Assembly: GCA_965231095.1 (NCBI GenBank)
Contig: OZ246416.1
Location: 50,938-114,937, forward strand
DNA: 64,000 nt
Reading direction: 5' to 3'
Source: an uncultured Gammaproteobacteria bacterium
Lineage (GTDB): Bacteria; Patescibacteriota; Patescibacteriia; XYB2-FULL-38-15
Below the pieces are notes generated by a model. It had not been told where the DNA came from. It saw only the letters and a program-made list of their open reading frames with translations, and did not search any database. Position numbers and translations under genes: made by a program. This document shows positions 3,593-61,567 of this stretch, one piece after another; position 1 is the stretch's first letter; each line of letters begins with the position of its first letter.

Positions 3593-4937
3593 GTTGGAGA
3601 TATTTTATCGCTTCGGCGATATTTTTTATTTTTGTAATTTTTATATTTCCCTTAACTTGTTGTTTAAAGTTTGGCGCCAAAATTTCTTTGAATCCCATTT
3701 TTTCCGCCTCATTAATTCTTTTTTCAATTTGTCCCGCCGCGCGCACTTCGCCGCCCAAGCCGACTTCGCCAAAAGCGAGCATGGTCCGCGGCAGAGGTTT
3801 ATTTTTAAAAGCGGAGGCTACAGCCAAAACGACGGCAAGGTCGCAGGCCGGTTCTTGAATTTTATAACCGCCGGCGACGTTTAAATGGACATCGTGCGTT
3901 CCCAAATTTATTCCCGCCCTTTTTCCCAAAACCGCGAGAAGGAGCTGCAAGCGATTTAAATCAAAACCGCCGGAACGCCGTTGGGGATAGCCAAAATAAG
4001 TTCGGGAAACAAGCGATTGAATTTCAACGAGTAGCGGCCGGGAACCTTCAATCACGCAAGTCGTAGCCGAGCCGGCGATATCGCTATCGCGTTCTTCAAG
4101 AAAAATCGCCGAAGGATTTTTAACTTCTTCTAGGCCACTTGATTTCATTTCAAAAATTCCCACTTCATCGGTTCCGCCAAATCTATTTTTAACGGTGCGC
4201 AGCAGCCGGTAGGCGTGGAAGCGATCGCCTTCAAGATATAAAACCGTGTCCACTAAATGTTCCAGAGTTTTTGGTCCGGCGACTTGGCCTTCTTTTGTGA
4301 CATGGCCGATTATGAAAATCGGAATATTGTTTTTTTTGGCGACTTCCAAGAGTTTTACGGTGCAGGCGCGGACTTGGTTTACGCTGCCGGCTTCGGAGGG
4401 GAGTTCGGGCGTGGCCATGGTTTGGATTGAATCAATAATCGCCATGGCCGGTTTTAATTTTTCTATTGTCGAACAAATTATATTAATATTTGTTTCGCCC
4501 AAAAATTGAAGGGCGGTGGTTTTAAGCCCCAAGCGGTCCAGCCGCATTTTTATCTGTTCGGCGGATTCTTCTCCGGAAACGTAAAGAGTATTTCCGTTTT
4601 TTCCCGACGCGGCCATTTGCGCCACAAGAGTTGATTTTCCAATTCCCGGTTCGCCGCCCAAAAGTACAAGCGAGCCCGGAACAATTCCGCCGCCTAAAAC
4701 CTGATCAAGCTCATTAATGCCGGTTTTTATCCGCGCGAAATCTTTTCCTGTGACCTCATTAAAATTTACGACTTTACCCATGGGCATTTTTCCCGATTCT
4801 TGCATTTTTTGACTTTCAGATTTCATTACTTCCGAAAGTGTTCCCCACGCGCCGCATTCCAAGCACCGCCCCGCCCACTTGGTGGATTGAGCCCCGCACT
4901 TGGAACATTCATAAATTGTTTGTGGTGAATTGGGCAT
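3549..4937 (-). CDS. radA: DNA repair protein RadA/Sms
   Basis: N-terminal zinc ribbon CSKCGAQSTKWAGRCLECGAWGTL, Walker A GGEPGIGKSTL, KNRFG motif, C-terminal Lon-protease-like domain. Confidence 0.9.
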   Translation of the reverse strand: MPNSPQTIYECSKCGAQSTKWAGRCLECGAWGTLSEVMKSESQKMQESGKMPMGKVVNFNEVTGKDFARIKTGINELDQVLGGGIVPGSLVLLGGEPGIGKSTLVAQMAASGKNGNTLYVSGEESAEQIKMRLDRLGLKTTALQFLGETNINIICSTIEKLKPAMAIIDSIQTMATPELPSEAGSVNQVRACTVKLLEVAKKNNIPIFIIGHVTKEGQVAGPKTLEHLVDTVLYLEGDRFHAYRLLRTVKNRFGGTDEVGIFEMKSSGLEEVKNPSAIFLEERDSDIAGSATTCVIEGSRPLLVEIQSLVSRTYFGYPQRRSGGFDLNRLQLLLAVLGKRAGINLGTHDVHLNVAGGYKIQEPACDLAVVLAVASAFKNKPLPRTMLAFGEVGLGGEVRAAGQIEKRINEAEKMGFKEILAPNFKQQVKGNIKITKIKNIAEAIKYLQLDIRHTEEKNEEEN

Positions 4938-4942
4938 ATTTT

Positions 4943-6673
4943 TTACGGTTCTGGTTTATAGGTTGATGTGAGTGGGAAGGGGAGACCACAGGTGCTTTTT
5001 AGGCAAACAGTCCCTCTTTTGACAACTTTTCCCGGAGAACCCTGAACTACACTGGCTACTCCTGCTCGTGAGGTCCAGCCCATAAAAATCACGGCATGGC
5101 CACCTCGCGTAGACGAGTTGGCATTAAAAATCACAATGGAATCACCGGCCTGCAATTCGTCTGCCCAAGAATCCGGATAACCATCACCGATTCCGCTCCT
5201 TAATTTTTCATAAACCTTTCTTATTTGTTCTGCGGATTTGCAATCGGGTATACTTCCGTCGCAATTCATTGTATCTAAATATGCCCAAAGATCACTGTAT
5301 GAATAGACGGAGTGTCTCACTATGCCGCGGGTTGAGACTCCTAAACCATTTTTTAATGCCTCCTCAACGTTTCGTCCTCTTTGGCCAGCCGTAGCTTGCG
5401 GAACTCCGGCTAAGTAGTTAATTCTCAAATTTGATTCTCCGCAACTTCCCAGGATAACACAACAATTGGCAGCCGCATTTGCGACAGCTGTAACTTTAGC
5501 CCTTGTGCTTCCGCTACTAGGAATTAGTTTTTTCATAAATTCTAACGCACGAGTATTCCCCGGGCCAGTCCCAGTGTCCGCTTGTGCTTCTGCCGAAAAA
5601 GTCACAAAGCATCTTGACAAGCTCTCATCACATTTTTCAGAGGTCGCAATCGGTCTACTCCCTTCTGGAACCGAAGTATCCGATGCCGCGGCTTCACTGG
5701 CCGCAGCAGTATCAACGTTATTCCACGTTGCCTCCTCAATATACTTTACTTTTAATGAATCAAACTCCGTCAATTTGGGATTTATGGCAAAAAGAAGCAA
5801 ATATGAAGTTAAAGCAATAACCAAACCCACGAGTGACGATTCAATAAAACTTTTTGCCGTGGAAACTTTTCCTGCGTCTCCGCCGGCTGTGAGCCAGAGA
5901 AGTCCACCAATGACAATCATAATTCCCGCCAAGATTCCGACGACGCCGATGGCATATTTATAAATTGCCGCAATGTATTGCCCAAGCCAGGGGATTAAGA
6001 GATAACGGTTTGGTGCGTCGCCCTGGAGTGTCAAATCGGCAAATTGAGAAAGACTTGGGAGAGTGGGTAGAGGAATTTCAAGGGTAGGGGTGACAGATTC
6101 AAATTGATGCGGCGCCGGAGGTTCGGCAACGGGGCTCAGTTTTTCGCAAGTCGTTTTTGTTTCATCGCAGAGAAGAGATGATAATGAGGCACCTAAACAT
6201 TGCGCTTTGGCAAGACCGCAAAGATAATTGCAGGCGTCCTCGGTGGCAGTCAGAACTTCGAATCCTCCTACGATAACTTCCGACCCATCACTTTTTCTCG
6301 GAGTAAATTTACATTTTATCGTTAAAGTCGGAGTAGTTGTCTCGCCGCAAGTTGTGTAAGTCGCGTCGCAGTTTTCCGGATCGTGGGGGATGGCGTCAAG
6401 AATGCCGCCGCCTGAAGCGCATTGGGCCATCAGTCCGCCAGAAAATTCTCGGCTGCATTTTAGCAAACATTCTGCTTTTTCCAGTTCTCTGCTCCAAGGC
6501 CGGTGATCGGCGTCAGAGCCGGTATATATGATATTCCGGCTGCTATCGCGCGGGACGTATTCGCACTGAATTTTTTCCGCCAAAACCGGGCCGCCCATAA
6601 ATAAAAATAACACCGGTGATAAAAAAAATACTGACATCGCGGCGAAAAAATTTCGGCGGTTTGTTTTTTTCAT
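4943..6673 (-). CDS. secreted Cys-rich surface protein with a TrbC/VirB2-like two-helix membrane hairpin and a C-terminal CHAP/NlpC-P60-like putative hydrolase domain
   Basis: Signal peptide MKKTNRRNFFAAMSVFFLSPVLFLF; many Cys in the N-terminal region; hydrophobic hairpin IGGLLWLTAGGDAGKVSTAKSFIESSLVGLVIALTSYLLLF resembling conjugative pilins; C-terminal GDSIVIFNANSSTRGGHAVIF resembling the His motif of CHAP/NlpC-P60 hydrolases. Confidence 0.45.
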   Translation of the reverse strand: MKKTNRRNFFAAMSVFFLSPVLFLFMGGPVLAEKIQCEYVPRDSSRNIIYTGSDADHRPWSRELEKAECLLKCSREFSGGLMAQCASGGGILDAIPHDPENCDATYTTCGETTTPTLTIKCKFTPRKSDGSEVIVGGFEVLTATEDACNYLCGLAKAQCLGASLSSLLCDETKTTCEKLSPVAEPPAPHQFESVTPTLEIPLPTLPSLSQFADLTLQGDAPNRYLLIPWLGQYIAAIYKYAIGVVGILAGIMIVIGGLLWLTAGGDAGKVSTAKSFIESSLVGLVIALTSYLLLFAINPKLTEFDSLKVKYIEEATWNNVDTAAASEAAASDTSVPEGSRPIATSEKCDESLSRCFVTFSAEAQADTGTGPGNTRALEFMKKLIPSSGSTRAKVTAVANAAANCCVILGSCGESNLRINYLAGVPQATAGQRGRNVEEALKNGLGVSTRGIVRHSVYSYSDLWAYLDTMNCDGSIPDCKSAEQIRKVYEKLRSGIGDGYPDSWADELQAGDSIVIFNANSSTRGGHAVIFMGWTSRAGVASVVQGSPGKVVKRGTVCLKSTCGLPFPLTSTYKPEP

Positions 6674-28460: not shown

Positions 28461-28495
28461 AAAAAGGGCTCGCTTTGAGGTGGAGCCCGTACCAT
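28461..28495 (-). terminator. intrinsic terminator of island B operon (also downstream of miaB)
   Basis: Minus strand GGGCTCcacctcaaagcGAGCCCttttttt. Confidence 0.6.
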
Positions 28496-28505
28496 TTGCT
28501 GTCCG

Positions 28506-28754
28506 CTAGCCGATCCTTTGGACGACTTTGACATCGTGGATCTTCTGGACGTCGAACCAGTGAGTTGCTTCGCAGAGCGGTTTGTGGGGTTGATCGTACC
28601 CGCAGGGCAAGAGTTGGAAGATGTGACCATGGACCGTGATCACCTCGCCGATAAAAGCGTCCCATGGGTCGACCCACAATTGTTTTCCCTCTTTAGCCGT
28701 CTTCACAAAAGAGATCAACTTGCCGAGGTACCTTTCGGCCGATGCTTCAGCCAT
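28506..28754 (-). CDS. GC-rich island B gene 3: 83-aa soluble His/Cys-containing protein (hypothetical)
   Basis: MAEASAERYLGK...ITVHGHIFQLLPCGYDQPHKPLCEATHW; SD GAGGAGGAGG; start overlaps stop of upstream gene (gATGgcTGA). Confidence 0.55.
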   Translation of the reverse strand: MAEASAERYLGKLISFVKTAKEGKQLWVDPWDAFIGEVITVHGHIFQLLPCGYDQPHKPLCEATHWFDVQKIHDVKVVQRIG

Positions 28755-28980
28755 CGTCTTCCTCCTCCTCTTCTTCGCAGTTTTTCTTGCGGGCGCGGCG
28801 GAGAGATTCAGCCACGCAAATGACAAGGACGACGGTCATGCCGACAAGCACGGCGATCATGTAGGCCTTTCGCCAGAAGGTCAGTCCCTCGGCGGGAAGA
28901 ACCACAATGACGCCGATCACGCAGAGAATCGCGAGTAGGGCGAAGAACAGAGCGCGTAGCACGCTCCAGAGTTGTTTCAT
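28747..28980 (-). CDS. GC-rich island B gene 2: 77-aa two-TM membrane protein with poly-Glu/Asp C-terminal tail (holin-like topology)
   Basis: MKQLWSVLRALFFALLAILCVIGVIVVLPAEGLTFWRKAYMIAVLVGMTVVLVICVAESLRRARKKNCEEEEEEDDG; SD GGGGGGAG; ATGA start/stop overlap with gene 1. Confidence 0.55.
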   Translation of the reverse strand: MKQLWSVLRALFFALLAILCVIGVIVVLPAEGLTFWRKAYMIAVLVGMTVVLVICVAESLRRARKKNCEEEEEEDDG

Positions 28981-29210
28981 GGGCGTGACTCCCCCCAACG
29001 CCGCCGGGCGAAAAGCGATGCCACCGAGGTGCCGACAACCGAAAGAGCAATCCCGACGAAGCATCCAAGGATCACTTCCGTCTTCAGCTCTCCGAAGAGG
29101 TTGGTATGCGCCGCCAGGGGAATCGCCGCGGCCAGGGTGCATCCGATCAGGGCGAAGACGAGCAGACAACGGCCCGTCCTATCCTCACGTCGCGATTCTT
29201 CAAGAGTCAT
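28977..29210 (-). CDS. GC-rich island B gene 1: 77-aa two-TM membrane protein (holin/antiholin-like topology)
   Basis: MTLEESRREDRTGRCLLVFALIGCTLAAAIPLAAHTNLFGELKTEVILGCFVGIALSVVGTSVASLFARRRWGESRP; SD GGAGGAAG 2 nt before ATG. Confidence 0.55.
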   Translation of the reverse strand: MTLEESRREDRTGRCLLVFALIGCTLAAAIPLAAHTNLFGELKTEVILGCFVGIALSVVGTSVASLFARRRWGESRP

Positions 29211-29248
29211 GGCTTCCTCCTTTGCCACTTATAAGTTAATATAAAAAG

Positions 29249-42717: not shown

Positions 42718-43632
42718 ATGGCGAAGTATGAAAAGCTGAACCTGGGTCAGATTGAAGCGCTCGTGAACATCTTGGGTGGCATGGAGGTCGTGAAGAAGAT
42801 TCTTCGCGGGACGAAGAAGCCTCTTCCCCCGGACAAAGGCTTTCGGTCCCTTTTTGACAACTACGGCCGCCGCGTTGCGCCTCCTACGATGAGCGACAAG
42901 GGAGGAGCCGATCCGGAGGTGTGTTTGGCTCAGCCGGCGATGCATCTTCCACCGGGACCGGGAACAAGGTTCAAGGGTTTGTGCGAACGCCTTGGCTGGC
43001 AGAACCAGATGACTCCGGAAGAATTTCGCGCGCGGGTGGACAAGGCGGTAGAGAAGATCAACTTCGGCAGCATCAGAGAAGAGGTGAGGGGAATTTTGGG
43101 TGGTGTGTATCTGCCCTTTGGTCTTCCGCAGGTGACCTCCAGCGATTGCGGGGAGATCCTTGACGAACTCGGCTTGATCAATGCGGTTGAGCGTGTTTTC
43201 AAGGAAAGATTTCCCGAGGGGCAGTTTTTCGGACAAGAAAAATCCCTGAAGGGAGGCTTCCGCTTGATCGAAGGAAGTCGCCACGAGCGATTTTTGGAGG
43301 CCTTGACAAAGGAGCCGGTCGTTGCCATCTACTTCCCATTGGCGCTCCAAGGGTATTTGCCCGATAAGGCCGTCGAGCAGATGGAGAGCCTGCCGGAAGA
43401 GTTTCTGCTTTCCGGTGTGGTTGATACAGCGGCGGCGATCATGATGTATCCGGAAGTTCTACTTCGGGACACCTGCGTGCCGCAGCTCGGATGTTCGGCA
43501 GTGAAGCGCTGGGTGACCGGAGTTTCCTCATTCGATGTCAGTGACGGCAGCGACAAGATCACGCTCGCCTTCGGGGGGTGCCAGATCTTTGGGCGCGGCA
43601 AGTTTACTTCCGGCCTCACCGTCATCGCGTAG
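42718..43632 (+). CDS. GC-rich island C: hypothetical 304-aa protein, no recognisable domain
   Basis: ~60% GC; SD GGAAGGAGA 6 nt before ATG; TTGACT promoter-like element at 42605; downstream terminator 43695-43728. Confidence 0.6.
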   Translation: MAKYEKLNLGQIEALVNILGGMEVVKKILRGTKKPLPPDKGFRSLFDNYGRRVAPPTMSDKGGADPEVCLAQPAMHLPPGPGTRFKGLCERLGWQNQMTPEEFRARVDKAVEKINFGSIREEVRGILGGVYLPFGLPQVTSSDCGEILDELGLINAVERVFKERFPEGQFFGQEKSLKGGFRLIEGSRHERFLEALTKEPVVAIYFPLALQGYLPDKAVEQMESLPEEFLLSGVVDTAAAIMMYPEVLLRDTCVPQLGCSAVKRWVTGVSSFDVSDGSDKITLAFGGCQIFGRGKFTSGLTVIA

Positions 43633-48738: not shown

Positions 48739-49623
48739 TTAAATTTCAAAAATAGCAATTCTATTTCTTCCCGAAAGATCTTGTTTAATCTTAATTTTTG
48801 CGGAAGGGAAGCGGCGTTTGATTAATTTTGTGATGGATTTTTTTTGAGAAGGGTCGATTTCAAAGATTGAAGTAATGGGTGACGAGTAATGGGTAACGAG
48901 GAATTCTATTTGTTGGAGGAGCTCGCGGTAATAATTTAAGCCATCGGTACCGCCGTCAAGCGCCGTTCGTGGTTCGTATTTTTTTATTTCCGGCTGGGTT
49001 TTTTGCCATTGGCGGGTTGTGAGATACGGAAGGTTGGCGACAATTAATAAATTTTCAATTTTCAATTTACAATTTTCAATTTTGCGAATTACAGGTTTTA
49101 GTAAGTCGCCATGGATTAGGGTGACGGCCGCCTCGTGGTGTTTAATATTTTTTCTTGCCACCTCCATGGCGCCGGAGGAAATTTCCGTGGCGAAGATTTT
49201 GGCATTGGGCAGACGGCGGGCAAGTGCGATGGCGATGGCCCCGCTTCCGGTTCCGACATCGACGATTGATGTATCTTGTATCTTGTATTTTGTATTTTGT
49301 ATTTTTCTCAAAACTTCCTCCACTAAAATTTCCGTTTCGGGGCGGGGGATTAAAACATTTTTGTTTACAAAAAAATCCAGGCCAAAAAATTCTTTGAGGC
49401 CAGTGATGTAGGCGATTGGTTCATGTTTGGCGCGGCGGGCGATAAGTTTTTTAAATTTTAACAATTGTGCCGCCGTCAATTTTTTTTCAGAATGCGCGTA
49501 TAAAAATTCTCGCGGTTTTTTTATGACAAAAGATAAAAGAATCTCGGCGTCCAAAGACGGGGAGAGAGTTTTTGATTTTTTTAAAATTTTTATCGCCCAG
49601 ACGATGGATTGTTTGATGGTCAT
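48739..49623 (-). CDS. prmC: release factor glutamine N5-methyltransferase PrmC/HemK with several in-frame tandem-repeat inserts
   Basis: SAM motif VDVGTGSGAIAIALA, NLPY substrate motif; in-frame repeats at 48860-48895, 49040-49090, 49265-49300. Confidence 0.85.
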   Translation of the reverse strand: MTIKQSIVWAIKILKKSKTLSPSLDAEILLSFVIKKPREFLYAHSEKKLTAAQLLKFKKLIARRAKHEPIAYITGLKEFFGLDFFVNKNVLIPRPETEILVEEVLRKIQNTKYKIQDTSIVDVGTGSGAIAIALARRLPNAKIFATEISSGAMEVARKNIKHHEAAVTLIHGDLLKPVIRKIENCKLKIENLLIVANLPYLTTRQWQKTQPEIKKYEPRTALDGGTDGLNYYRELLQQIEFLVTHYSSPITSIFEIDPSQKKSITKLIKRRFPSAKIKIKQDLSGRNRIAIFEI

Positions 49624-49650
49624 ATAAATATTTAAATATTATAACATAAA

Positions 49651-49692
49651 AAATCACCCGAGCGTTGCGTGCGATTGGGCGCGCAAAACTCG
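49651..49692 (-). terminator. intrinsic terminator of island D 197-aa gene
   Basis: Minus strand CACCCGAGttttgcgcgcccaatcgcacgcaacgCTCGGGTGattttttat. Confidence 0.6.
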
Positions 49693-49706
49693 GGTGTGAC
49701 GGTCGG

Positions 49707-50297
49707 TTACGGGGAAGTGATGTCCTTCGTCCCGTCGTAGGGATCGCCGGAGTCGGCGGAATCGTCGGCGGGCGGCGCAGCGGGCGAGACGACCTCGACT
49801 TCCTCCTCGATGTCCTCGGCCACCACGACCGTGGTTTCCGGCGCGTCTTCGAGGATCTCGACCATCTTCATCGCCTGGCGCACACAGGCCGACAGCTCGG
49901 CGGTGGAGAAGGCGTAGGAGAGTTGTTCGAAGGTAACCCGGCGTCCTGGTTCCGTGTCCTTCGACATCCAGTGTTCGATCAGCTTGGCGAGATCATCGTC
50001 GGAGACGCGTTTCAGGATCTCCTCGATCGCGGATTTTGCGCCGTTCTCGATACCGCCGAGCATCGCCTGGCGCATGATGGGCACGGTGTCTTTCTTGTCA
50101 CCGGGCCAGATCCCGAGTAGATCGCCAACGATCTTCTCGAAGGTGTGCACTTGGGCAATGTGAGCCAGGCCGCTGGCCCGGCTCAAATTGATGTGGTGCA
50201 AGATGATCCAGATGTTCAGGACGCCGAGATCCACGAAGTGCTGGAGCATCGCCGCTAGCGTCAACTTCTTGTCTCTTTCCTTCTTGGATTCCGCCAT
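49707..50297 (-). CDS. GC-rich island D gene 2: hypothetical ~197-aa protein (helical, acidic C-terminal tail)
   Basis: MAESKKERDKKLTLAAMLQHFVDLGVLNIWIILHH...; ~62% GC; minus-strand promoter cTTGACAa-N17-TAAGGT at 50342-50370; 5' UTR palindrome CTCCGATTAATCGGAG. Confidence 0.55.
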   Translation of the reverse strand: MAESKKERDKKLTLAAMLQHFVDLGVLNIWIILHHINLSRASGLAHIAQVHTFEKIVGDLLGIWPGDKKDTVPIMRQAMLGGIENGAKSAIEEILKRVSDDDLAKLIEHWMSKDTEPGRRVTFEQLSYAFSTAELSACVRQAMKMVEILEDAPETTVVVAEDIEEEVEVVSPAAPPADDSADSGDPYDGTKDITSP

Positions 50298-50382
50298 TGT
50301 CTTCCACTCGCTCCGATTAATCGGAGTCCTTTCTATCCGCACCTTAGTTTAAAAAATAAAATTTGTCAAGATAAAAAAAGAG

Positions 50383-50445
50383 CCCGTGGATTGCTTGGAG
50401 TTGGGGCACGGGACGTGTCTCCAAAGCAATCCACGGGCTGGGTGA
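50383..50445 (-). terminator. long-stem intrinsic terminator after island D zinc-ribbon gene
   Basis: agcccgtggattgcttggag...ctccaaagcaatccacgggct ~20-bp stem followed on minus strand by ctcttttttt. Confidence 0.6.
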
Positions 50446-50608
50446 TGCCCAGCGGGTGCCGTGAGGCTGGCCGGCTGGGCTCAGTCGCGTGACCCGCCCG
50501 GGGGGTAGGAGGGCACCGGGGAGCCGACGCGAGCTTGGGGAACGGAGAGTTCTCGAGCGAACTCGCAAACTCTCACGTTATTGGTGGGTAAGTTACAGGC
50601 GGGTCTTG

Positions 50609-50881
50609 TCAGGGTCGGGGGCAGTTCCGGACGACATGCATTCGCTTGCGCCTGGCGCGGGCGACGCCGTCCGTGTACTTCTTGCCCTTGCGTTCGGCGA
50701 AAGTGTGCATCGAGCAGTAGTGCCCGGTATTCCCGCTACGGAGAATCGTTCCACAGTCGGGTTCCTGGCATCGCCGCGGCTTGCCATCGTCGGTGCTCCG
50801 ACCGCTGTCGTGCACGTCGCCGAGCGAATTGGCGCCGACCGTGCCGGTACCCTGATCCATTCCGAGCGCGCTCCAGTCCAT
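50609..50881 (-). CDS. GC-rich island D gene 1: 90-aa Cys/His-cluster (zinc-ribbon-like) protein, possibly nucleic-acid binding
   Basis: ...RRCQEPDCGTILRSGNTGHYCSMHTF...; SD GGAGGAGGAAGG before ATG; 5' UTR hairpin ccttgcgt..acgcaagg. Confidence 0.55.
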   Translation of the reverse strand: MDWSALGMDQGTGTVGANSLGDVHDSGRSTDDGKPRRCQEPDCGTILRSGNTGHYCSMHTFAERKGKKYTDGVARARRKRMHVVRNCPRP

Positions 50882-51004
50882 CCTTCCTCCTCCTCAACCT
50901 TCCCTATTATCAACTCGTCCTGTCCACCAGGCCGAGGCTTAGGGCCACCTTCCTTGCGTTTTGACGCGTGCCAATAACGCAAGGCCACCCTGTTTGTTGA
51001 TTTT

Positions 51005-51065
51005 AGAATATAATAAAAAGCTTAATTTGTCAACCCCTTGACAAATTTTAAGATTGTGGTAGAGT
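51005..51065. promoter_or_regulatory. divergent sigma70-type promoter pair with palindromic overlapping -35 boxes (TTGTCAAccccTTGACAA)
   Basis: Plus: TTGACA(51038-43)-N16-TAGAGT(51060-65). Minus: TTGACA-N16-TATTCT (plus agaata 51005-10). Perfect inverted repeat ttgtcaa/ttgacaa around cccc. Confidence 0.55.
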
Positions 51066-51071
51066 GTTCTG

Positions 51072-51388
51072 TAGGGTAATGGGGAGTCCTGTTTGGTTGA
51101 TGCCGGCAGCGCACCGGCGTCGTGGGCAGTCATTTTTTGCTTCACTCTGAATCCGGAACCCTTGGCTGGTGAACAGCGCGTTGTAGCGCGGCTGGCCTTG
51201 TGGCGAAGGACCCACGGAGTGGCCCGACAGGAACCCGGTTCGCGAGCTGCCCGTTAAGCAGACGTGGGCTGAAATCTCCCCAGCGCATCTGATCCTCCAA
51301 GTCCGCTTCGGCGGGCACGGAGGTCACCATTCTTTGCACACCGCTGCATTTCGCGTTGTGCCCGTCGGTCGAACACCCTGTTCGACCG
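51072..51388 (+). ncRNA. candidate ~320-nt GC-rich structured non-coding RNA of unknown class, driven by the island D plus-strand promoter and ending in a strong intrinsic terminator
   Basis: No plus-strand ORF with SD; CCGCuucgGCGG UUCG tetraloop hairpin, several GC stems; terminator GTCGGTCGAACaccctGTTCGACCGACtctttttt at 51354-51388. Confidence 0.45.
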
Positions 51389-51394
51389 ACTCTT

Positions 51395-51418
51395 TTTTAT
51401 ATAAAAAACCGGCCTTGC
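51395..51418 (-). terminator. intrinsic terminator of prfA
   Basis: Minus strand CCGGCCgcaaGGCCGGtttttt, preceded by cccgactaaagtcggg hairpin. Confidence 0.6.
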
Positions 51419-51489
51419 GGCCGGAGGGAACGGAGTCCCGACTTTAGTCGGGTTATACATTGCCCACCCTGAAGAGTGGACTCCAAAAT

Positions 51490-52530
51490 TTAGTTTATAT
51501 CTTTTTTCAATACCTCAATAATTCCGTCCAATTCGCCGTCCATTACGTTATTAATATTGTGCCAACTTTCTTTTACCCGATGATCGGAAACGCGGTCTTG
51601 GGGAAAATTGTAAGTTCTGATTTTTTCCGCGCGCATGGCCGAACCGATTTGCGAACGCCGCGACGCAACTTCTGCCGCCTGGCGTTTTTCTTGTTCCATG
51701 GCAAAAAGACGGGCGCGCAAAACCTGCATGGCTTTTTCCCGGTTTTGCTGCTGCGATCGTTCGTCTTGGCAGGCGACAACAAGCCCGGTTGGAAGATGCG
51801 TAATTCTTACGGCCGAATATGTTGTTTGCACGCTTTGTCCGCCGTGGCCGCCGGATAAAAATGTATCAATGCGCAAATCCTTTGGTTCAATTTTTATATC
51901 AATTTCTTCGGCTTCGGGAAGTACGGCGACCGAGGCGGTTGAGGTATGAACCCGTCCGCTTTTTTCCGTGTCCGGAACGCGCTGAACGCGGTGCACGCCG
52001 CTTTCAAATTTTAAATTTCCCCAGGCGCCTTTTCCAATGACGGAAAAAATAATTTCTTTAAAACCGCCGAGGTCAGTGCGGCTTGAGGATATTAATCTTG
52101 TCTGCCAACCTTTCCATTCGGCAAACATGGAATACATTCTGAATAATTGCGCGGCAAAAAGCGCGGCCTCGTCTCCGCCCGCGCCGGCCCGGATTTCCAC
52201 AATAATATTTCTTTTGTCCAGCGGATCTTTTGGCGTCAGCTCTTCTTTGATTTCTATTTCAAGCGCTGCCTTATCTTGCCGAATTTTTTCCAACTCATCT
52301 TTCGCGATGGCGACCAGTTCCGGAACATTTTGTTTTGCGACTGTTTCTGTGTCGGCTTCTTCTTTTTCCCATTTATGAAATTTTTTTATTTTTTCCATCA
52401 CGTCTTTTATCTCGCTGTATTCACGGGAAACGGTTTTTAATTTTTCCGGATTAGAAACCACCTCGGGGCGGGCAAGTTCCGCTTCGAGTTCGGCAAAACG
52501 TTTTTCAGCTTTTTGGATTTCCGGGAGCAT
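51490..52530 (-). CDS. prfA: peptide chain release factor 1
   Basis: GGQ motif [12 protein letters not shown], PxT-type recognition motif RVPDTE, RF-1 size 346 aa; normally directly upstream of prmC. Confidence 0.85.
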
Positions 52531-52863: not shown

Positions 52864-52925
52864 AAAATAGATTATTTATTTACATTAATCTTAATTTAAC
52901 ATAAGGCCGTGAGTTTGGCAAGGGG

Positions 52926-52956
52926 TTGACAAAATTACGGGGTGGAGTAATAAGAT
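52926..52956 (+). promoter_or_regulatory. sigma70-type promoter of island E (TTGACA ... TAAGAT)
   Basis: ggggTTGACAaaattacggggtggagtaaTAAGATgag. Confidence 0.5.
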
Positions 52957-52987
52957 GAGTAGGGGTTGCCACAAAAGGAGGTGTTCT

Positions 52988-53224
52988 ATGGCAAGAAGAA
53001 GTTGGAGTTTCGAGCATCGGGGTACGGAAGGCGTCATCAAGACGCCTGACGGGGAGCACGTCGTCCATTCCAAAGAGGAGGCCAAGCGGCACTTGCAAGA
53101 GGGTGCACACCTGAAATATATCAGCTCTTCGATTGCCGGCCCTACCCTCGCGGAGCGGGACGAGGCCAGGGAATGGAGAGAGGCGGTGAGGCAGGTCAAT
53201 GAGTCCAGCCTTCCCGACAAGTAG
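52988..53224 (+). CDS. GC-rich island E: hypothetical 78-aa protein
   Basis: MARRSWSFEHRGTEGVIKTPDGEHVVHSKEEAKRHLQEG...; SD aaaGGAGGtgttctATG; terminator 53233-53285 with nested tccga-gaaa-tcgga hairpin. Confidence 0.55.
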   Translation: MARRSWSFEHRGTEGVIKTPDGEHVVHSKEEAKRHLQEGAHLKYISSSIAGPTLAERDEAREWREAVRQVNESSLPDK

Positions 53225-53232
53225 TCGGACAT

Positions 53233-53285
53233 CGGTTGTGTTGGTCGGCAGGAAATCCGAGAAATCGGAGAGTACTGCCGGCCGT
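53233..53285 (+). terminator. intrinsic terminator of island E with nested GAAA-tetraloop hairpin
   Basis: GTCGGCAGgaaaTCCGAgaaaTCGGAgagtaCTGCCGGCcgttttttt. Confidence 0.6.
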
Positions 53286-53621
53286 TTTTTTATTTTCAAA
53301 AATCTCTCCCCCTCCTTTCGAAGGAGGGGTTAGGGGTGGTTTTTAAAAACTCCCACCCCACCTAACCTCCCCTCGGGCAGGGGAGGAATATTGAGCATTT
53401 GCCCTTGCCCCCACACCAATTTCAGCGAGGCCATTTTTATCCGAGTTTAAAATAAAAAAATTGGTGTGGGGGCTTGCATTATTTTTGCTTTTGTGTAAAA
53501 ATAGATGAAAGTCATTTATTAATAGTAATCCCACATGTTTTGCCTTTAAAACTTGTTCCTGATCCCCGCCACTGCGGGGACCCGCAAGTTTTGGCAAAAC
53601 AGAGGTTAAAAAGGAAAATTT

Positions 53622-60599: not shown

Positions 60600-60833
60600 A
60601 TGTGTTTTGGTGTCCCTTGTAAAATTGAAAAAGTAAATAAAAATAAAGCCACCATAAAAAATGGCGGCAAAGTTTTTGATATAGACACCTCGCTCTTGCC
60701 AAAAATAAAAAAAAATGATTGGATATTGGTGCAGGGCAATATTGGAATGAAGCAAATATCGGAGGATGAAGCAAAAAGTTGCCTTGCCGTTTTGGACGAA
60801 TTCCAAAGTAAAGAGGGGAAGGGAGGACTGTGA
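60600..60833 (+). CDS. hypC: [NiFe]-hydrogenase maturation chaperone HypC/HupF family
   Basis: N-terminal MCFGVPCKI (MCxxxP signature), ~77 aa. Confidence 0.75.
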   Translation: MCFGVPCKIEKVNKNKATIKNGGKVFDIDTSLLPKIKKNDWILVQGNIGMKQISEDEAKSCLAVLDEFQSKEGKGGL

Positions 60834-61567
60834 TGGAGAGAACATACGCAAGAGCGGCGCGCTACGCGCTCTATCCGAACATGCTCGGGCTTTGCGGGCC
60901 GCGCGGAAGGGGCAAGGAAAAACTCTACGAGTATTTGACTCTCAAGACCAAGGTGGACGACCAAGAGGCGAGGGAATTACTCGAGCAATTCACCGCGGCC
61001 ACGGCCTACATGAAACTGATTGCCGCGGCAAACGAGATTCCGGACTGGCTGGATCCGAGGGTGGTTGACGCCTACTGGATTGGAAACGACCTTTTGAACC
61101 TTGTCCGCGCCGAGGATCTGAAGGAATTGATCCATGGTCTCGTTCTAGCAGGAAAGCTTGCCGAGTCCGCGGCGGAAGAAGCGATTGCCCGTGTCCACCG
61201 CGATCATCGTCCGCACCATAGCTTCCATGTTTTTGTGATCGGCGGACTTTCCGGCCAAGTGGAGCGCGGGTCAATCGGCTGGGAACTTTGCCGTATCGGC
61301 TGGGGGACGGTCGCCCGCGTCAAGCATGACGGCAACCTCACAGTTTTGGCAGAGTCTTTGTTGCAAAAGGGCGGCAAGATTTTTCCTGAACTTGAGGGAG
61401 TGGAAAGAGAGCGGCTCATCAGGCGCGACCGGGAACTTTTCCCACGCGTTTCCTCTGGTGACCTCGTTGCTTTCCACTGGGGCAGAGTGGTTGAAATTAT
61501 TGACCACGACGCAGCACGGCGGCTGGACTATTGGACCGAACGGACGCTCCGGCACTGCAGACTGTAG
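60833..61567 (+). CDS. GC-rich island F: hypothetical 244-aa protein inserted in the hydrogenase cluster directly after hypC
   Basis: ~60% GC; SD AAGGGAGG; start overlaps hypC stop (gtgATGg); terminator 61593-61625 AGACTAGCttttaggGGCTAGTCttttttt. Confidence 0.55.
   Translation: MERTYARAARYALYPNMLGLCGPRGRGKEKLYEYLTLKTKVDDQEARELLEQFTAATAYMKLIAAANEIPDWLDPRVVDAYWIGNDLLNLVRAEDLKELIHGLVLAGKLAESAAEEAIARVHRDHRPHHSFHVFVIGGLSGQVERGSIGWELCRIGWGTVARVKHDGNLTVLAESLLQKGGKIFPELEGVERERLIRRDRELFPRVSSGDLVAFHWGRVVEIIDHDAARRLDYWTERTLRHCRL

What the first reader, a model, noticed from the sequence alone, without database searches (positions are those of the whole stretch)
49640..51470. Island D: 1.8-kb GC-rich insertion splitting prfA-prmC, with palindromic divergent promoter, two proteins and a non-coding RNA
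prfA (51490-52530) and prmC (48739-49623) are normally adjacent and co-transcribed. Here they are separated by a GC-rich block. A perfect inverted repeat TTGTCAAccccTTGACAA (51027-51044) supplies two divergent -35 boxes. Leftward it drives a 90-aa Cys/His zinc-ribbon-like protein (50881-50609), which is followed by a 20-bp-stem terminator. A second promoter then drives a ~197-aa protein. Rightward it drives a ~320-nt transcript with no ORF, ending at a 12-bp-stem terminator. This is a compact, self-regulating module of unknown function.
Basis: seen in the sequence. Interest (0 to 1): 0.85.

Follow-up and report, generated by a model that had tools for sequence, protein, structure and literature searches.

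The report
Clade-specific GC-rich RNA/small-protein islet in Patescibacteria
A 1.8-kb GC-rich block between the release-factor gene prfA and its methylase gene prmC is real, sits at this site in every sampled member of one small group of ultra-small (Patescibacteria) bacteria, and carries a new structured RNA plus two orphan proteins whose untranslated RNA parts are better conserved than the proteins; its function is unknown.

Summary
Window 49648-51402 is about 58% GC in a 44% GC genome.

Comparison with 9 related lineages and one outgroup changes the interpretation:
- **Age.** The block is an old, clade-specific insertion. The outgroup has prfA and prmC adjacent. All ingroup genomes carry the block at the same site, sometimes with prs.
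- **Organisation.** It consists of three separate transcription units with conserved promoters and terminators.
- **RNA.** The ~330-nt RNA recurs in two other lineages. 96.6% of pair positions are paired and 12 pairs show compensatory changes. It has no Rfam match.
- **Best-conserved parts.** These are the promoter, a structured 5' leader and a structured 3' UTR of the small gene.
- **Variable parts.** The small ORF between them comes in two non-homologous forms: a CCCH zinc type and a cysteine-free type. Both have Arg-rich C-termini. Protein X is helical with an acidic tail, evolves fast and is mosaic.
- **Palindrome.** It is two back-to-back -35 boxes, not a conserved operator.

Neither protein nor the RNA matches any known family, phage or plasmid.

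The most likely reading is an RNA-centred regulatory or RNP module (low confidence). The GC richness fits an ancient foreign origin that has not fully ameliorated.

The parts
51409..51424 (-). prfA intrinsic terminator (CCGGCCGCAAGGCCGG followed by a U-run). This is the right boundary of the islet.
   Evidence: Conserved in L012 and L018.
51070..51400 (+). ~330-nt structured non-coding RNA, a new family. It includes its own 12-bp terminator at 51364-51390 followed by a U-run.
   Evidence: MFE -145 kcal/mol, z = -3.4. Homologues in L004 at 6206-6548(-) and in L020 at 4372-4699(-), nhmmer E = 6e-80. 98 pairs, 96.6% of pair positions paired, 12 pairs with compensatory changes. No Rfam match.
51038..51065 (+). 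Promoter of the RNA: TTGACA, 16-nt spacer, TG-n-TAGAGT (extended -10).
   Evidence: The -35 and the TGnTA(G/T)AGT element are conserved in L004 and L020.
51024..51047 (.). Palindrome formed by the two back-to-back -35 boxes of the divergent promoters.
   Evidence: I25. The spacer is 4 nt here and 5 nt in L020. In L004 it is 8 nt and not palindromic. Lineages without the RNA lack it.
51005..51033 (-). Promoter of the small-protein gene: TTGACA, 17-nt spacer, TATTCT.
   Evidence: Conserved in all 9 lineages.
50882..50996 (-). Structured 5' leader of the small gene (GGGUGGCC...AAGGUGGCCCUA, two hairpins, purine-rich SD GAGGAGGA). One of the best-conserved parts of the islet.
   Evidence: The promoter plus leader stretch (51033-50888) is 79-85% nt-identical in lineages whose small ORF is unrelated. 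Covariance model scores 71-144 bits in all 9 lineages and none elsewhere. 24 pairs, 97% of pair positions paired, 8 compensatory pairs, 0/500 shuffles reach this.
50609..50881 (-). Small protein, 90 aa: conserved N-terminal LGMDxGTGTIGASSLG, CCCH knuckle (C38, C43, C56, H59), Arg-rich C-terminal tail.
   Evidence: dN/dS 0.22-0.45. GC3 0.79. No family match. AF2 pLDDT 39.6.
50372..50608 (-). Conserved structured 3' UTR (CCACC...AACGUGAGAG-hairpin-CUCUCCGUU...) ending in the 20-bp-stem terminator at 50381-50439 followed by U7.
   Evidence: 43 pairs, 9 of them compensatory, among 4 lineages.
50341..50370 (-). Promoter of X: CTTGACAAATTTTA -35 region and a non-canonical -10-like TAAGGT that is nearly invariant (TAATGT in L020).
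   Evidence: (I7).
50298..50340 (-). 5' leader of X (GCGGAUAGAAAGGACU followed by a hairpin and the SD).
   Evidence: The X promoter and the start of its leader are 94% identical to L003 over 54 nt, against ~72% in the small-protein coding sequence.
49707..50297 (-). Protein X, 196 aa: 8-helix domain (residues 1-151) plus a disordered acidic tail (AEDIEEEVEVV...).
   Evidence: GC3 0.82 with GC2 0.38. dN/dS 0.37-0.98. No fold or family match.
49648..49696 (-). X terminator (18-nt arms, 83% complementary, 49655-49672 / 49679-49696, then U6). This is the left boundary of the islet.
   Evidence: I5. Hairpin-plus-U-run terminators follow X in the other lineages as read.
49638..49647 (-). prmC's own promoter -10 (ATGTTATAAT), just outside the islet.
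   Evidence: Conserved in L003, L010, L014, L018 and L020.

Best explanation
**Shown**
- Island D is a clade-specific islet of a small Patescibacteria group. One member is labelled Candidatus Falkowbacteria.
- It entered between prfA and prmC before the sampled lineages diverged, and has stayed at that site since.
- It consists of autonomous sigma-70-type transcription units:
  1. an optional ~330-nt structured RNA, transcribed divergently from its neighbour;
  2. a small-protein mRNA whose promoter, structured 5' leader, structured 3' UTR and long terminator are among the best-conserved sequences of the islet;
  3. the mRNA of X, a helical protein with an acidic disordered tail.
- The coding parts evolve fast and are mosaic. 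The small ORF exists in two unrelated forms, both ending in an Arg-rich tail.

**Inferred (low confidence)**
- This is an RNA-centred post-transcriptional module.
- The small Arg-rich protein binds the conserved hairpins of its own mRNA and/or the 330-nt RNA. This would act as autogenous control or as an RNP.
- X, through its acidic tail, is the partner or antagonist of that basic tail.
- The palindrome is a by-product of two abutting -35 boxes.
- The GC richness is the incompletely ameliorated signature of an ancient foreign origin.
For: **Age and position**
- The outgroup L021 has prfA and prmC adjacent.
- Nine ingroup lineages carry [RNA]/[prs]-small-X at the same site.
- Island dS (0.5-1.5) equals flank dS (0.56-1.5).

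**Genes are real**
- Codon-position GC for X is 0.61/0.38/0.82, and dN/dS is below 1.

**RNA**
- Three homologues.
- 96.6% of pair positions paired, and 12 compensatory pairs against 0-3 in slid controls.
- Frame-breaking indels.

**The RNA parts are the constrained parts**
- The promoter plus leader stretch is 79-85% identical where the ORF shows no nucleotide similarity.
- The leader has 8 compensatory pairs, reached by 0/500 shuffles.
- The 3' UTR has 9 compensatory pairs.

**Two unrelated small ORFs in the same frame of UTRs**
- hhalign probability 0.4%.
- Both end in Arg-rich tails.

**X has a small partner gene immediately upstream in every locus examined**
- This holds even at a different locus: L015, between clpP and rny.

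**X structure**
- The tail is acidic and predicted disordered.
Against: - No binding, expression or interaction data exist.
- The RNA is present in only 3 of 9 lineages at this locus.
- RNA-versus-UTR duplex energies are no better than shuffles.
- The small protein gives no confident fold, and its Zn knuckle could equally bind DNA.
- Arg-rich tails are also typical of ribosome-binding proteins.
- No donor for the supposed transfer was found. The X family has only 12 clusters among 1.84 billion representatives. Every locus examined sits in a Patescibacteria-type gene neighbourhood.
Confidence: 0.35

Rival explanations
1. One reading: the Zn protein is a DNA-binding autoregulator that acts on the palindromic divergent promoter, and on the similar X promoter, making a self-regulating transcriptional module.
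For: - The palindrome is perfect.
- Three promoters share CTTGACAAAT(T) contexts.
- The CCCH knuckle has a weak resemblance to the zinc-binding N-terminus of phage HNH endonucleases (phrog_144, E = 0.012).
- The spacer sequences of the small-gene promoter are well conserved.
Against: - The palindrome equals two -35 hexamers.
- Its spacing is not conserved (4, 5 or 8 nt). It is absent in the six lineages lacking the RNA.
- In five lineages the Zn protein is replaced by a Cys-free, non-homologous protein, yet the promoter is unchanged.
- TTGACAAAT-like -35 contexts are common host promoters in the window (10 matches).
Confidence: 0.12
2. The small proteins are lineage-specific, release-factor-dependent ribosome-rescue or other ribosome-binding factors, analogous to ArfA, BrfA and ArfT. 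Their basic C-tails would probe the empty mRNA channel, and they sit next to prfA (RF1).
For: - Small size (69-95 aa).
- Two non-homologous forms, both with positively charged C-termini.
- The gene lies next to prfA and prmC, in a neighbourhood of translation genes: rpmE, rpsB, tsf, rplY.
- Known rescue factors are likewise unrelated small proteins with positively charged C-terminal extensions (PMC6881298).
Against: - ArfA and BrfA are made from non-stop mRNAs because a terminator or cleavage site lies inside the ORF. Here the stop codon is intact and the terminator lies ~170 nt downstream.
- In L015 the X module lies between clpP and rny, not near prfA.
- This model gives no role to X, the RNA or the conserved UTRs.
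Confidence: 0.1
3. It is a selfish or conflict cassette. Candidates are a toxin-antitoxin-like pair with a divergent regulatory RNA (type I-like), a toxin/immunity locus, or a defence locus kept variable by recombination.
For: - Fast-evolving, mosaic ORFs whose combinations disagree with flank similarity. For example, L018 prmC is 78% identical to the window's but its X only 30%, and its X is 58% identical to X of L003/L004.
- Mosaic tails of X.
- A divergent RNA and small-protein layout recalls tisB/istR-type loci (my own knowledge).
- Atypical GC.
Against: - No PADLOC, Pfam or PHROG hit.
- The small protein is hydrophilic, not a membrane peptide.
- The two proteins have separate promoters with a strong terminator between them.
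- No RNA-mRNA complementarity beyond shuffles.
- A fixed syntenic position and no mobility genes or flanking repeats.
- No phage, plasmid or viral relatives.
Confidence: 0.1
4. The small Arg-rich protein is a lambda-N-like antiterminator. It would bind hairpins in the leader or 3' UTR and allow read-through of the strong internal terminators into X and prmC.
For: - Arg-rich motif and predicted disorder.
- Conserved hairpins both upstream and downstream of the ORF.
- Strong terminators after every unit.
Against: - X and prmC have their own conserved promoters, so read-through is not needed.
- The Arg-rich motif is C-terminal, unlike N.
- Nothing tests this directly.
Confidence: 0.08
5. It is an artefact (assembly chimera) or a functionless recent passenger of horizontal transfer.
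For: The GC content is strikingly different from the flanks.
Against: - The same junctions occur on 3 contigs carrying these proteins.
- The islet is conserved at the same site in 9 diverged lineages from many samples.
- Purifying selection on the ORFs.
- Compensatory changes in the RNAs.
- The outgroup lacks it.
Confidence: 0.02

Closest known systems
Compositionally atypical genomic islets acquired by horizontal transfer
   Same: - A sharp GC step (0.58 against 0.44; GC3 0.8 against 0.45).
- Sits between two genes that are adjacent in an outgroup.
- Orphan genes.
   Different: - No integrase, tRNA target, flanking repeats or mobility genes.
- Fixed and co-diverging with its flanks in all 9 sampled relatives.
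- Host-type AT-rich promoters and terminators.
- No donor or homologue outside the clade.
ArfA / BrfA / ArfT alternative ribosome-rescue factors
   Same: - Small, lineage-restricted, mutually non-homologous proteins with positively charged C-terminal tails.
- Here the gene lies next to the RF1 gene.
   Different: - No terminator or cleavage site inside the ORF, so the mRNA is not non-stop.
- Accompanied by X, long conserved UTRs and an RNA.
- No sequence similarity.
Arg-rich-motif RNA-binding peptides (lambda N-boxB type) and autogenous control through r-protein mRNA leaders
   Same: - A small, probably disordered protein with an Arg-rich tail.
- It is encoded behind a strongly conserved hairpin-containing leader.
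- Strong terminators lie nearby.
   Different: - The Arg-rich motif is C-terminal.
- There is no boxA/boxB-like consensus.
- The leader matches no Rfam r-protein leader.
- Downstream genes have their own promoters.
Divergently transcribed sRNA and small-protein loci (type I toxin-antitoxin, e.g. tisB/istR-1, zor/orz)
   Same: An sRNA gene and a small ORF share a back-to-back promoter region.
   Different: - The RNA is ~330 nt and highly structured.
- There is no complementarity to the mRNA beyond chance.
- The protein is hydrophilic.
- The RNA is absent in most lineages that keep the proteins.
Large structured bacterial ncRNAs found as GC-rich intergenic regions in AT-rich genomes (Rfam: OLE, ROOL, GOLLD, raiA and others)
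   Same: GC-rich, multi-helix RNA with its own promoter and terminator and with covariation support.
   Different: - No Rfam model matches, even at E <= 10.
- Very narrow distribution (3 lineages).
- Embedded in a GC-rich protein-coding islet.

Membership tests
Horizontally acquired genomic island | Base composition atypical for the host | tested here: met
   GC 0.58 against 0.438. GC3 0.79-0.82 against 0.43-0.46 in the flanks.
Horizontally acquired genomic island | Absent from related genomes at the same site | tested here: inconclusive
   Absent from the outgroup L021 (prmC 49% identical), where prfA and prmC are adjacent. Present in all 9 ingroup lineages.
Horizontally acquired genomic island | Mobility signatures: integrase or transposase, tRNA target, flanking direct repeats | tested here: not met
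   Only two ORFs, neither with a Pfam or PHROG hit. No flanking repeats. tRNAs only at 46-879.
Horizontally acquired genomic island | Identifiable donor or homologues in other taxa or mobile elements | tested here: not met
   The X family has 12 clusters among 1.84 billion representatives. The Zn protein has 3 hits in 5.8 billion. No phage, plasmid or viral hits.
ArfA/BrfA-type rescue factor | Small protein with a positively charged C-terminal extension | tested here: met
   90 aa ending ...ARARRKRMHVVRNCPRP. The non-Zn forms end in RRRAKQPIRR, RRRLARNQRQRNR and similar.
ArfA/BrfA-type rescue factor | Made from a non-stop mRNA (terminator or RNase III site inside the ORF), as described in PMC6881298 | tested here: not met
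   The stop codon at 50609-50611 is intact. The terminator is at 50381-50439, ~170 nt downstream.
ArfA/BrfA-type rescue factor | Recruits RF1 or RF2 to stalled ribosomes | not testable with these tools
   Needs biochemistry.
Type I toxin-antitoxin with divergent sRNA | Small hydrophobic membrane toxin | tested here: not met
   The sequence is hydrophilic and charged.
Type I toxin-antitoxin with divergent sRNA | sRNA complementary to the toxin mRNA | tested here: not met
   Duplex energies of the RNA against the 5' UTR, 3' UTR and X leader fall within the shuffled range in all 3 lineages.
Any Rfam RNA family (RNase P, tmRNA, 6S, SRP, riboswitches, r-protein leaders, large ncRNAs) | Covariance-model match | tested here: not met
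   No match at gathering threshold. No match at E <= 10 on the RNA alone. Only noise on the UTRs. ARAGORN finds no tmRNA.
Known protein families or folds for X | Sequence-profile or structural match | tested here: not met
Zinc-ribbon / Zn-finger DNA-binding regulators with a palindromic operator | Conserved operator repeats at the regulated promoters, co-occurring with the regulator | tested here: not met
   The palindrome is two -35 boxes with variable spacing, and is absent without the RNA gene. The promoter is retained where the Zn protein is replaced.
Zinc-ribbon / Zn-finger DNA-binding regulators with a palindromic operator | Recognisable Zn-ribbon domain | tested here: inconclusive
   An invariant C-x4-C-x12-C-x2-H in three of the four sequences (L010 has a longer first spacer). 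Only sub-threshold hits: CxC6 E = 0.052, zf-CGNR E = 0.56, phrog_144 HNH E = 0.012. AF2 pLDDT 39.6.

The most novel reading that the evidence does not exclude
The islet is a previously unseen kind of RNA-framed expression cassette confined to one Patescibacteria clade. Conserved structured UTRs and promoters form a fixed scaffold. Unrelated small Arg-tailed ORFs and mosaic X alleles are exchanged within that scaffold by recombination between lineages. Together with the ~330-nt RNA they form a new ribonucleoprotein or translation-linked system. The high GC would then be actively maintained, by selection on RNA structure or by GC-biased conversion at a recombination hotspot, rather than being a fading transfer scar.
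Probability: 0.2. Interest if true: 0.8.

Novelty: new variant of a known kind. Interest (0 to 1): 0.6.

Why it matters
Patescibacteria (CPR) have tiny genomes, so a module that every sampled member of a clade keeps between two translation-termination genes is probably useful to them.

The islet supplies several things to follow up:
- A candidate new structured RNA of ~330 nt.
- Conserved structured mRNA UTR elements (a 5' leader and a 3' UTR).
- Three orphan protein families.

All sit next to RF1 and PrmC.

The islet also shows an unusual pattern. Its untranslated RNA and promoters are more constrained than its ORFs, and the ORF between them has been swapped for an unrelated one. If the mechanism is RNA-centred, or if it acts in ribosome rescue, this would be a new regulatory or quality-control device in a poorly understood part of the bacterial tree.

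If it is only an old transfer scar, it is still a clean case for studying amelioration and recombination in streamlined genomes.

Tried and rejected
- **Remnant of prs.** Relatives have prs between prfA and the small gene, so I asked whether the RNA region is a decayed prs. tblastn of three Prs proteins found nothing in 51070-51400. Rejected.
- **Known RNA.** Rfam at gathering threshold and at E <= 10, plus ARAGORN, gave nothing. The local resemblance of ACAGGAACCCGGUU to the RNase P P4 3' strand is not backed by any model. In the consensus fold those bases pair differently.
- **Coding potential of the RNA.** The 54-aa ORF is disrupted by indels in L004.
- **Phage, plasmid or virus origin.** No hits with protein or DNA queries. 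The 22 viral hits to a 15-mer of the leader are chance matches: nhmmer gives E >= 0.003 and short alignments.
- **trans-antisense role for the RNA.** Duplex energies are not better than shuffles. The unrestricted duplexfold run is itself of limited value (the first attempt timed out).
- **Homology between the two small-protein types.** hhalign probability 0.4%.
- **Structure-based function.**
  - The AFDB library was unavailable.
  - The Zn protein model is unusable.
- **Polarised synonymous-change test for amelioration.** The counts are strongly S->W in island genes (prs 46:8, Zn 10:1) and balanced in the flanks. At dS of ~0.5 per branch, parsimony produces the same skew at equilibrium, so I treat this as inconclusive.
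- **Prs donor from PDB similarity.** Uninformative.
- **More RNA copies.**
  - The 22-mer scan of genome contigs found nothing.
  - The 20-mer scan of metagenomes found only the L004 lineage again.
  - The protein-pattern scan of genome contigs found only the L003 genome.
  - Alignment A8 was too diverse for that tool.
- **Other copies of the motifs in the window.** The leader and UTR motifs occur nowhere else in the 64 kb.


Full report
**1. What is in the sequence**

Window 49631-51450 has GC 0.58 against a window mean of 0.438. It is the longest GC-rich patch in the 64 kb.

It lies between two genes on the minus strand. prmC is at 48739-49623 (Pfam PrmC_N, MTS). prfA is at 51490-52530 (Pfam PCRF, RF-1).

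- The palindrome AATTTGTCAAccccTTGACAAATT at 51024-51047.
- Two divergent promoters, each scoring 10/12.
- A 90-aa Cys/His ORF at 50881-50609.
- A 20-bp-stem terminator at 50381-50439.
- A second promoter at 50370-50357 whose 14-mer is identical to the one at 51037-51050.
- A 196-aa ORF, here called X, at 50297-49707.
- On the plus strand, a ~330-nt ORF-free stretch ending in a 12-bp terminator at 51364-51390.

Three further elements complete the layout:
- prfA has its own terminator at 51424-51409.
- X has its own terminator at 49696-49655.
- prmC has its own -10 (ATGTTATAAT, 49647-49638).

The islet is therefore three self-contained transcription units placed between two self-contained genes. 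The same arrangement occurs on three contigs, so a chimera is unlikely.

**2. Nothing known matches**

| Search | Query | Result |
|---|---|---|
| Pfam, PHROGs, NCBIfam, PADLOC | both proteins | only sub-threshold noise |
| PDB sequence profiles | both proteins | nothing significant |
| Phage, plasmid and IMG/VR | proteins, RNA and UTR DNA | nothing |
| Rfam | whole window, RNA, UTRs | nothing at gathering threshold or at E <= 10 |

Structure prediction added little:
- X is modelled as eight helices (residues 1-151) plus a disordered acidic tail, with pLDDT 70.5.
- The Zn protein is modelled at pLDDT 39.6.

Both protein families are extremely rare:
- X has 4 clusters in 5.8 billion sequences and 12 in an exhaustive profile search of 1.84 billion representatives.
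- The Zn protein has 3 clusters.

**3. Comparative genomics**

I looked up the contigs that encode the homologues, and those that encode prmC relatives. This gave nine ingroup lineages:
- the window
- L003, labelled Patescibacteria group bacterium JTS-AC368 (GCA_041737355.1)
- L004, which is the same as L011
- L010
- L012/L013
- L014
- L016
- L018/L019
- L020, labelled Candidatus Falkowbacteria (GCA_016214745.1)

All have the same neighbourhood: rpsB-tsf ... rpmE-prfA-[islet]-prmC-DUF3048-rplY-ftsW.

Across the ingroup, prfA is 86-94% identical and prmC 60-78%.

An outgroup (L021, prmC 49% identical) has prfA followed by a terminator and then prmC 205 nt later, with no islet.

The block is therefore an insertion, but an old one that predates the divergence of the sampled lineages. 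Its synonymous divergence (dS 0.5-1.5) equals that of the flanks (0.56-1.5), so it has co-diverged with the chromosome.

Five lineages also carry a GC-rich prs gene upstream of the small gene. The window has no trace of prs.

One distant X homologue (L015) lies between clpP and rny, behind another Cys-rich 93-aa ORF.

**4. The RNA**

The ORF-free stretch has homologues in two lineages:
- L004, ~70% identical over 401 nt by blastn, lying between prfA and prs (alignment).
- L020 (nhmmer E = 6e-80).

Each copy is on the strand opposite to prfA. Each has a conserved TTGACA / TGnTA(G/T)AGT promoter and a terminator whose stem covaries.

Evidence for structure:
- The window copy folds to -145 kcal/mol, z = -3.4.
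- On the three sequences, a 14-helix consensus of 98 pairs has 96.6% of pair positions paired. Twelve pairs show changes on both sides.
- When the partner columns are slid, only 36-41% pair and 0-3 pairs show such changes. At most 1 of 500 shuffles reaches the observed values.
- Caveat: there are only three sequences and the structure was derived from them.

Indels of 1, 2 and 15 nt rule out coding.

The RNA is not found within the fetched DNA of the other six lineages. It may lie elsewhere in those genomes or be absent.

**5. The most conserved parts are untranslated**

Between the window and the five lineages whose small ORF is unrelated, nucleotide similarity is confined to a few regions:
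- The small-gene promoter plus 5' leader (51033-50888, 79-85%).
- The small-gene 3' UTR and terminator (50589-50373).
- The X promoter and the start of its leader (50400-50325, 81-89% over the core).
- The part of X that encodes the acidic tail (49860-49708, 79-83%).

Evidence that the UTRs are structured:
- A covariance model of the leader finds exactly one copy per lineage (71-144 bits) and none elsewhere.
- The leader's three helices are 97% paired, with 8 compensatory pairs; 0 of 500 shuffles reach this.
- The 3' UTR has 9 compensatory pairs among four lineages.

**6. The ORFs are variable and mosaic**

The small ORF comes in two forms:
- A CCCH form in the window, L003, L004 and L010. The spacing is C-x4-C-x12-C-x2-H, with a longer first spacer in L010.
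- A Cys-free form in L012, L014, L016, L018 and L020.

Profile comparison finds no homology between them (probability 0.4%). Both end in Arg-rich tails.

Within the Zn type, dN/dS is 0.22-0.45.

X falls into at least three to five types that are 26-64% identical. The combinations of small-ORF type, X type, prs and RNA do not follow flank similarity. For example:
- L018 prmC is closest to the window's (78%).
- L018's X is 30% identical to the window's, but 58% identical to X of L003/L004.
- L018's small ORF is the Cys-free type, whereas L003/L004 have the Zn type.

The window's X tail is closer to that of L012 (68%) than to tails of its own type (33-48%).

I read this as recombinational mosaicism, but formal tests are needed.

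**7. GC content**

| Genes | GC3 |
|---|---|
| Small ORFs, X and prs, in every ingroup lineage | 0.65-0.84 |
| Flanking genes | 0.36-0.52 |
| X in L015, a 37% GC genome | 0.69 |

Singleton synonymous changes are strongly S->W in island genes (prs 46:8, Zn 10:1). They are balanced in the flanks (prfA 21:28, prmC 5:8).

This fits slow amelioration from a very GC-rich ancestor sequence. My rough estimate is that a start near GC3 0.95 decays to about 0.7 at this divergence. At this level of saturation, however, parsimony would give the same skew at equilibrium, so the test does not decide the question.

No donor was found. Several other GC-rich orphan genes occur in the window, so the islet is one of a class in this genome.

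**8. The palindrome**

The palindrome consists of the two -35 hexamers of the divergent promoters plus AT-rich flanks.
- The spacer is 4 nt in the window and 5 nt in L020.
- In L004 it is 8 nt, the left promoter drives prs, and the sequence is no longer a palindrome.
- The six lineages without the RNA gene have a single promoter preceded by the upstream gene's terminator.

This argues against an operator.

**9. Interpretation**

Firmly shown:
- An ancient, clade-restricted islet of three autonomous units.
- A new structured RNA.
- Structured, strongly constrained UTRs.
- Fast-evolving, real protein genes.

Inferred with low confidence:
- The small Arg-tailed protein is an RNA binder that acts on the conserved hairpins of its own mRNA and/or on the 330-nt RNA.
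- X, which has a small partner gene upstream in every locus examined and carries an acidic disordered tail, is its partner or antagonist.

Rivals I considered:
- An ArfA/BrfA-like ribosome-rescue factor next to RF1. The basic C-tail and lineage-specific non-homologous forms fit. The defining non-stop-mRNA arrangement described in PMC6881298 is absent.
- A conflict or toxin-antitoxin-like cassette.
- N-like antitermination.

None can be settled without transcript mapping and binding assays.

**10. Verdict**

The mechanism (palindrome-based self-regulation) is not supported. 'Insertion' is right only as an ancient, now fixed event.
- The elements belong to no known family.
- I rate the finding as a new variant of a known kind: a compositionally atypical islet with an sRNA and small proteins.
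- There is about a 20% chance that it is something new, namely an RNA-framed, recombining cassette or RNP linked to translation.
- Interest: 0.6.

Noticed in passing
window 52961-53290 (ORF 52880-53299, minus): A GC-rich (0.57) segment lies directly upstream of rpmE. Relatives L004, L012, L018 and L020 have a conserved 139-160-aa membrane-protein gene there (GC 0.39-0.44). The window lacks that gene. Its own 139-aa ORF is unrelated and shows no codon-position GC signal (GC3 0.51 against GC 0.52), so this may be another non-coding or replaced islet.
   Followed up: partly
window 42718-43632 (+), 60830-61567 (+), 28471-29240: There are further GC-rich patches. One holds a 304-aa orphan ORF (GC3 0.69). 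One holds a 245-aa ORF at 60830-61567 (GC3 0.66), which is probably the DUF6390 gene cut at the start of locus L001. The third is a 770-nt GC 0.57 stretch between a miaB-like gene and miaA, with only overlapping ORFs including a hydrophobic 140-aa one. None shares the Island-D promoter or leader motifs.
   Followed up: partly
L003 6826-7794, L004 6659-7642, L010 1318-2295, L014 341-1309, L016 228-1205: In five relatives the islet also contains a GC-rich prs gene (ribose-phosphate pyrophosphokinase, GC3 0.68-0.76, dN/dS 0.14-0.19). The window, L012, L018 and L020 lack prs at this locus. Whether the window's genome has prs elsewhere was not determined.
   Followed up: partly
window 50341-50346 (minus) and the equivalent position in all 9 lineages: The X promoter has a non-canonical -10-like TAAGGT, matching TATAAT at only 3 of 6 positions. 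It sits inside the block CTAAGGTGCG, which is nearly invariant: TAATGT in L020, and small changes in L010 and L016. This conservation suggests more than a -10 element, such as a binding site or the start of a functional leader.
   Followed up: no
window 50583-50588 (minus strand) and the X 3' UTRs of L004, L012, L014, L018 and L020: A CCCACC / CCACC motif follows the stop codon of the small gene. In most relatives it also follows the stop codon of X (...GCCCACCGCAGUACAAAUCCCAAGGAGGU...). It is complementary to the GGUGG repeats of the small-gene leader. Possible 5'-3' UTR pairing or a shared protein site was not tested.
   Followed up: no
L015 5557-6507: A distant X homologue (GC3 0.69 in a 37% GC genome) lies between clpP and rny. 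It sits behind a different Cys-rich 93-aa ORF (...PCNCSGFAKGKHASACHSRRRE...) and has a different promoter and leader. X is therefore not tied to the prfA-prmC site.
   Followed up: partly
P0012 (1601 aa) and P0016 (1134 aa): Two long proteins match only the acidic-tail region of the X profile, in 11 and 6 repeated stretches. This is probably low-complexity acidic repeats rather than homology.
   Followed up: no
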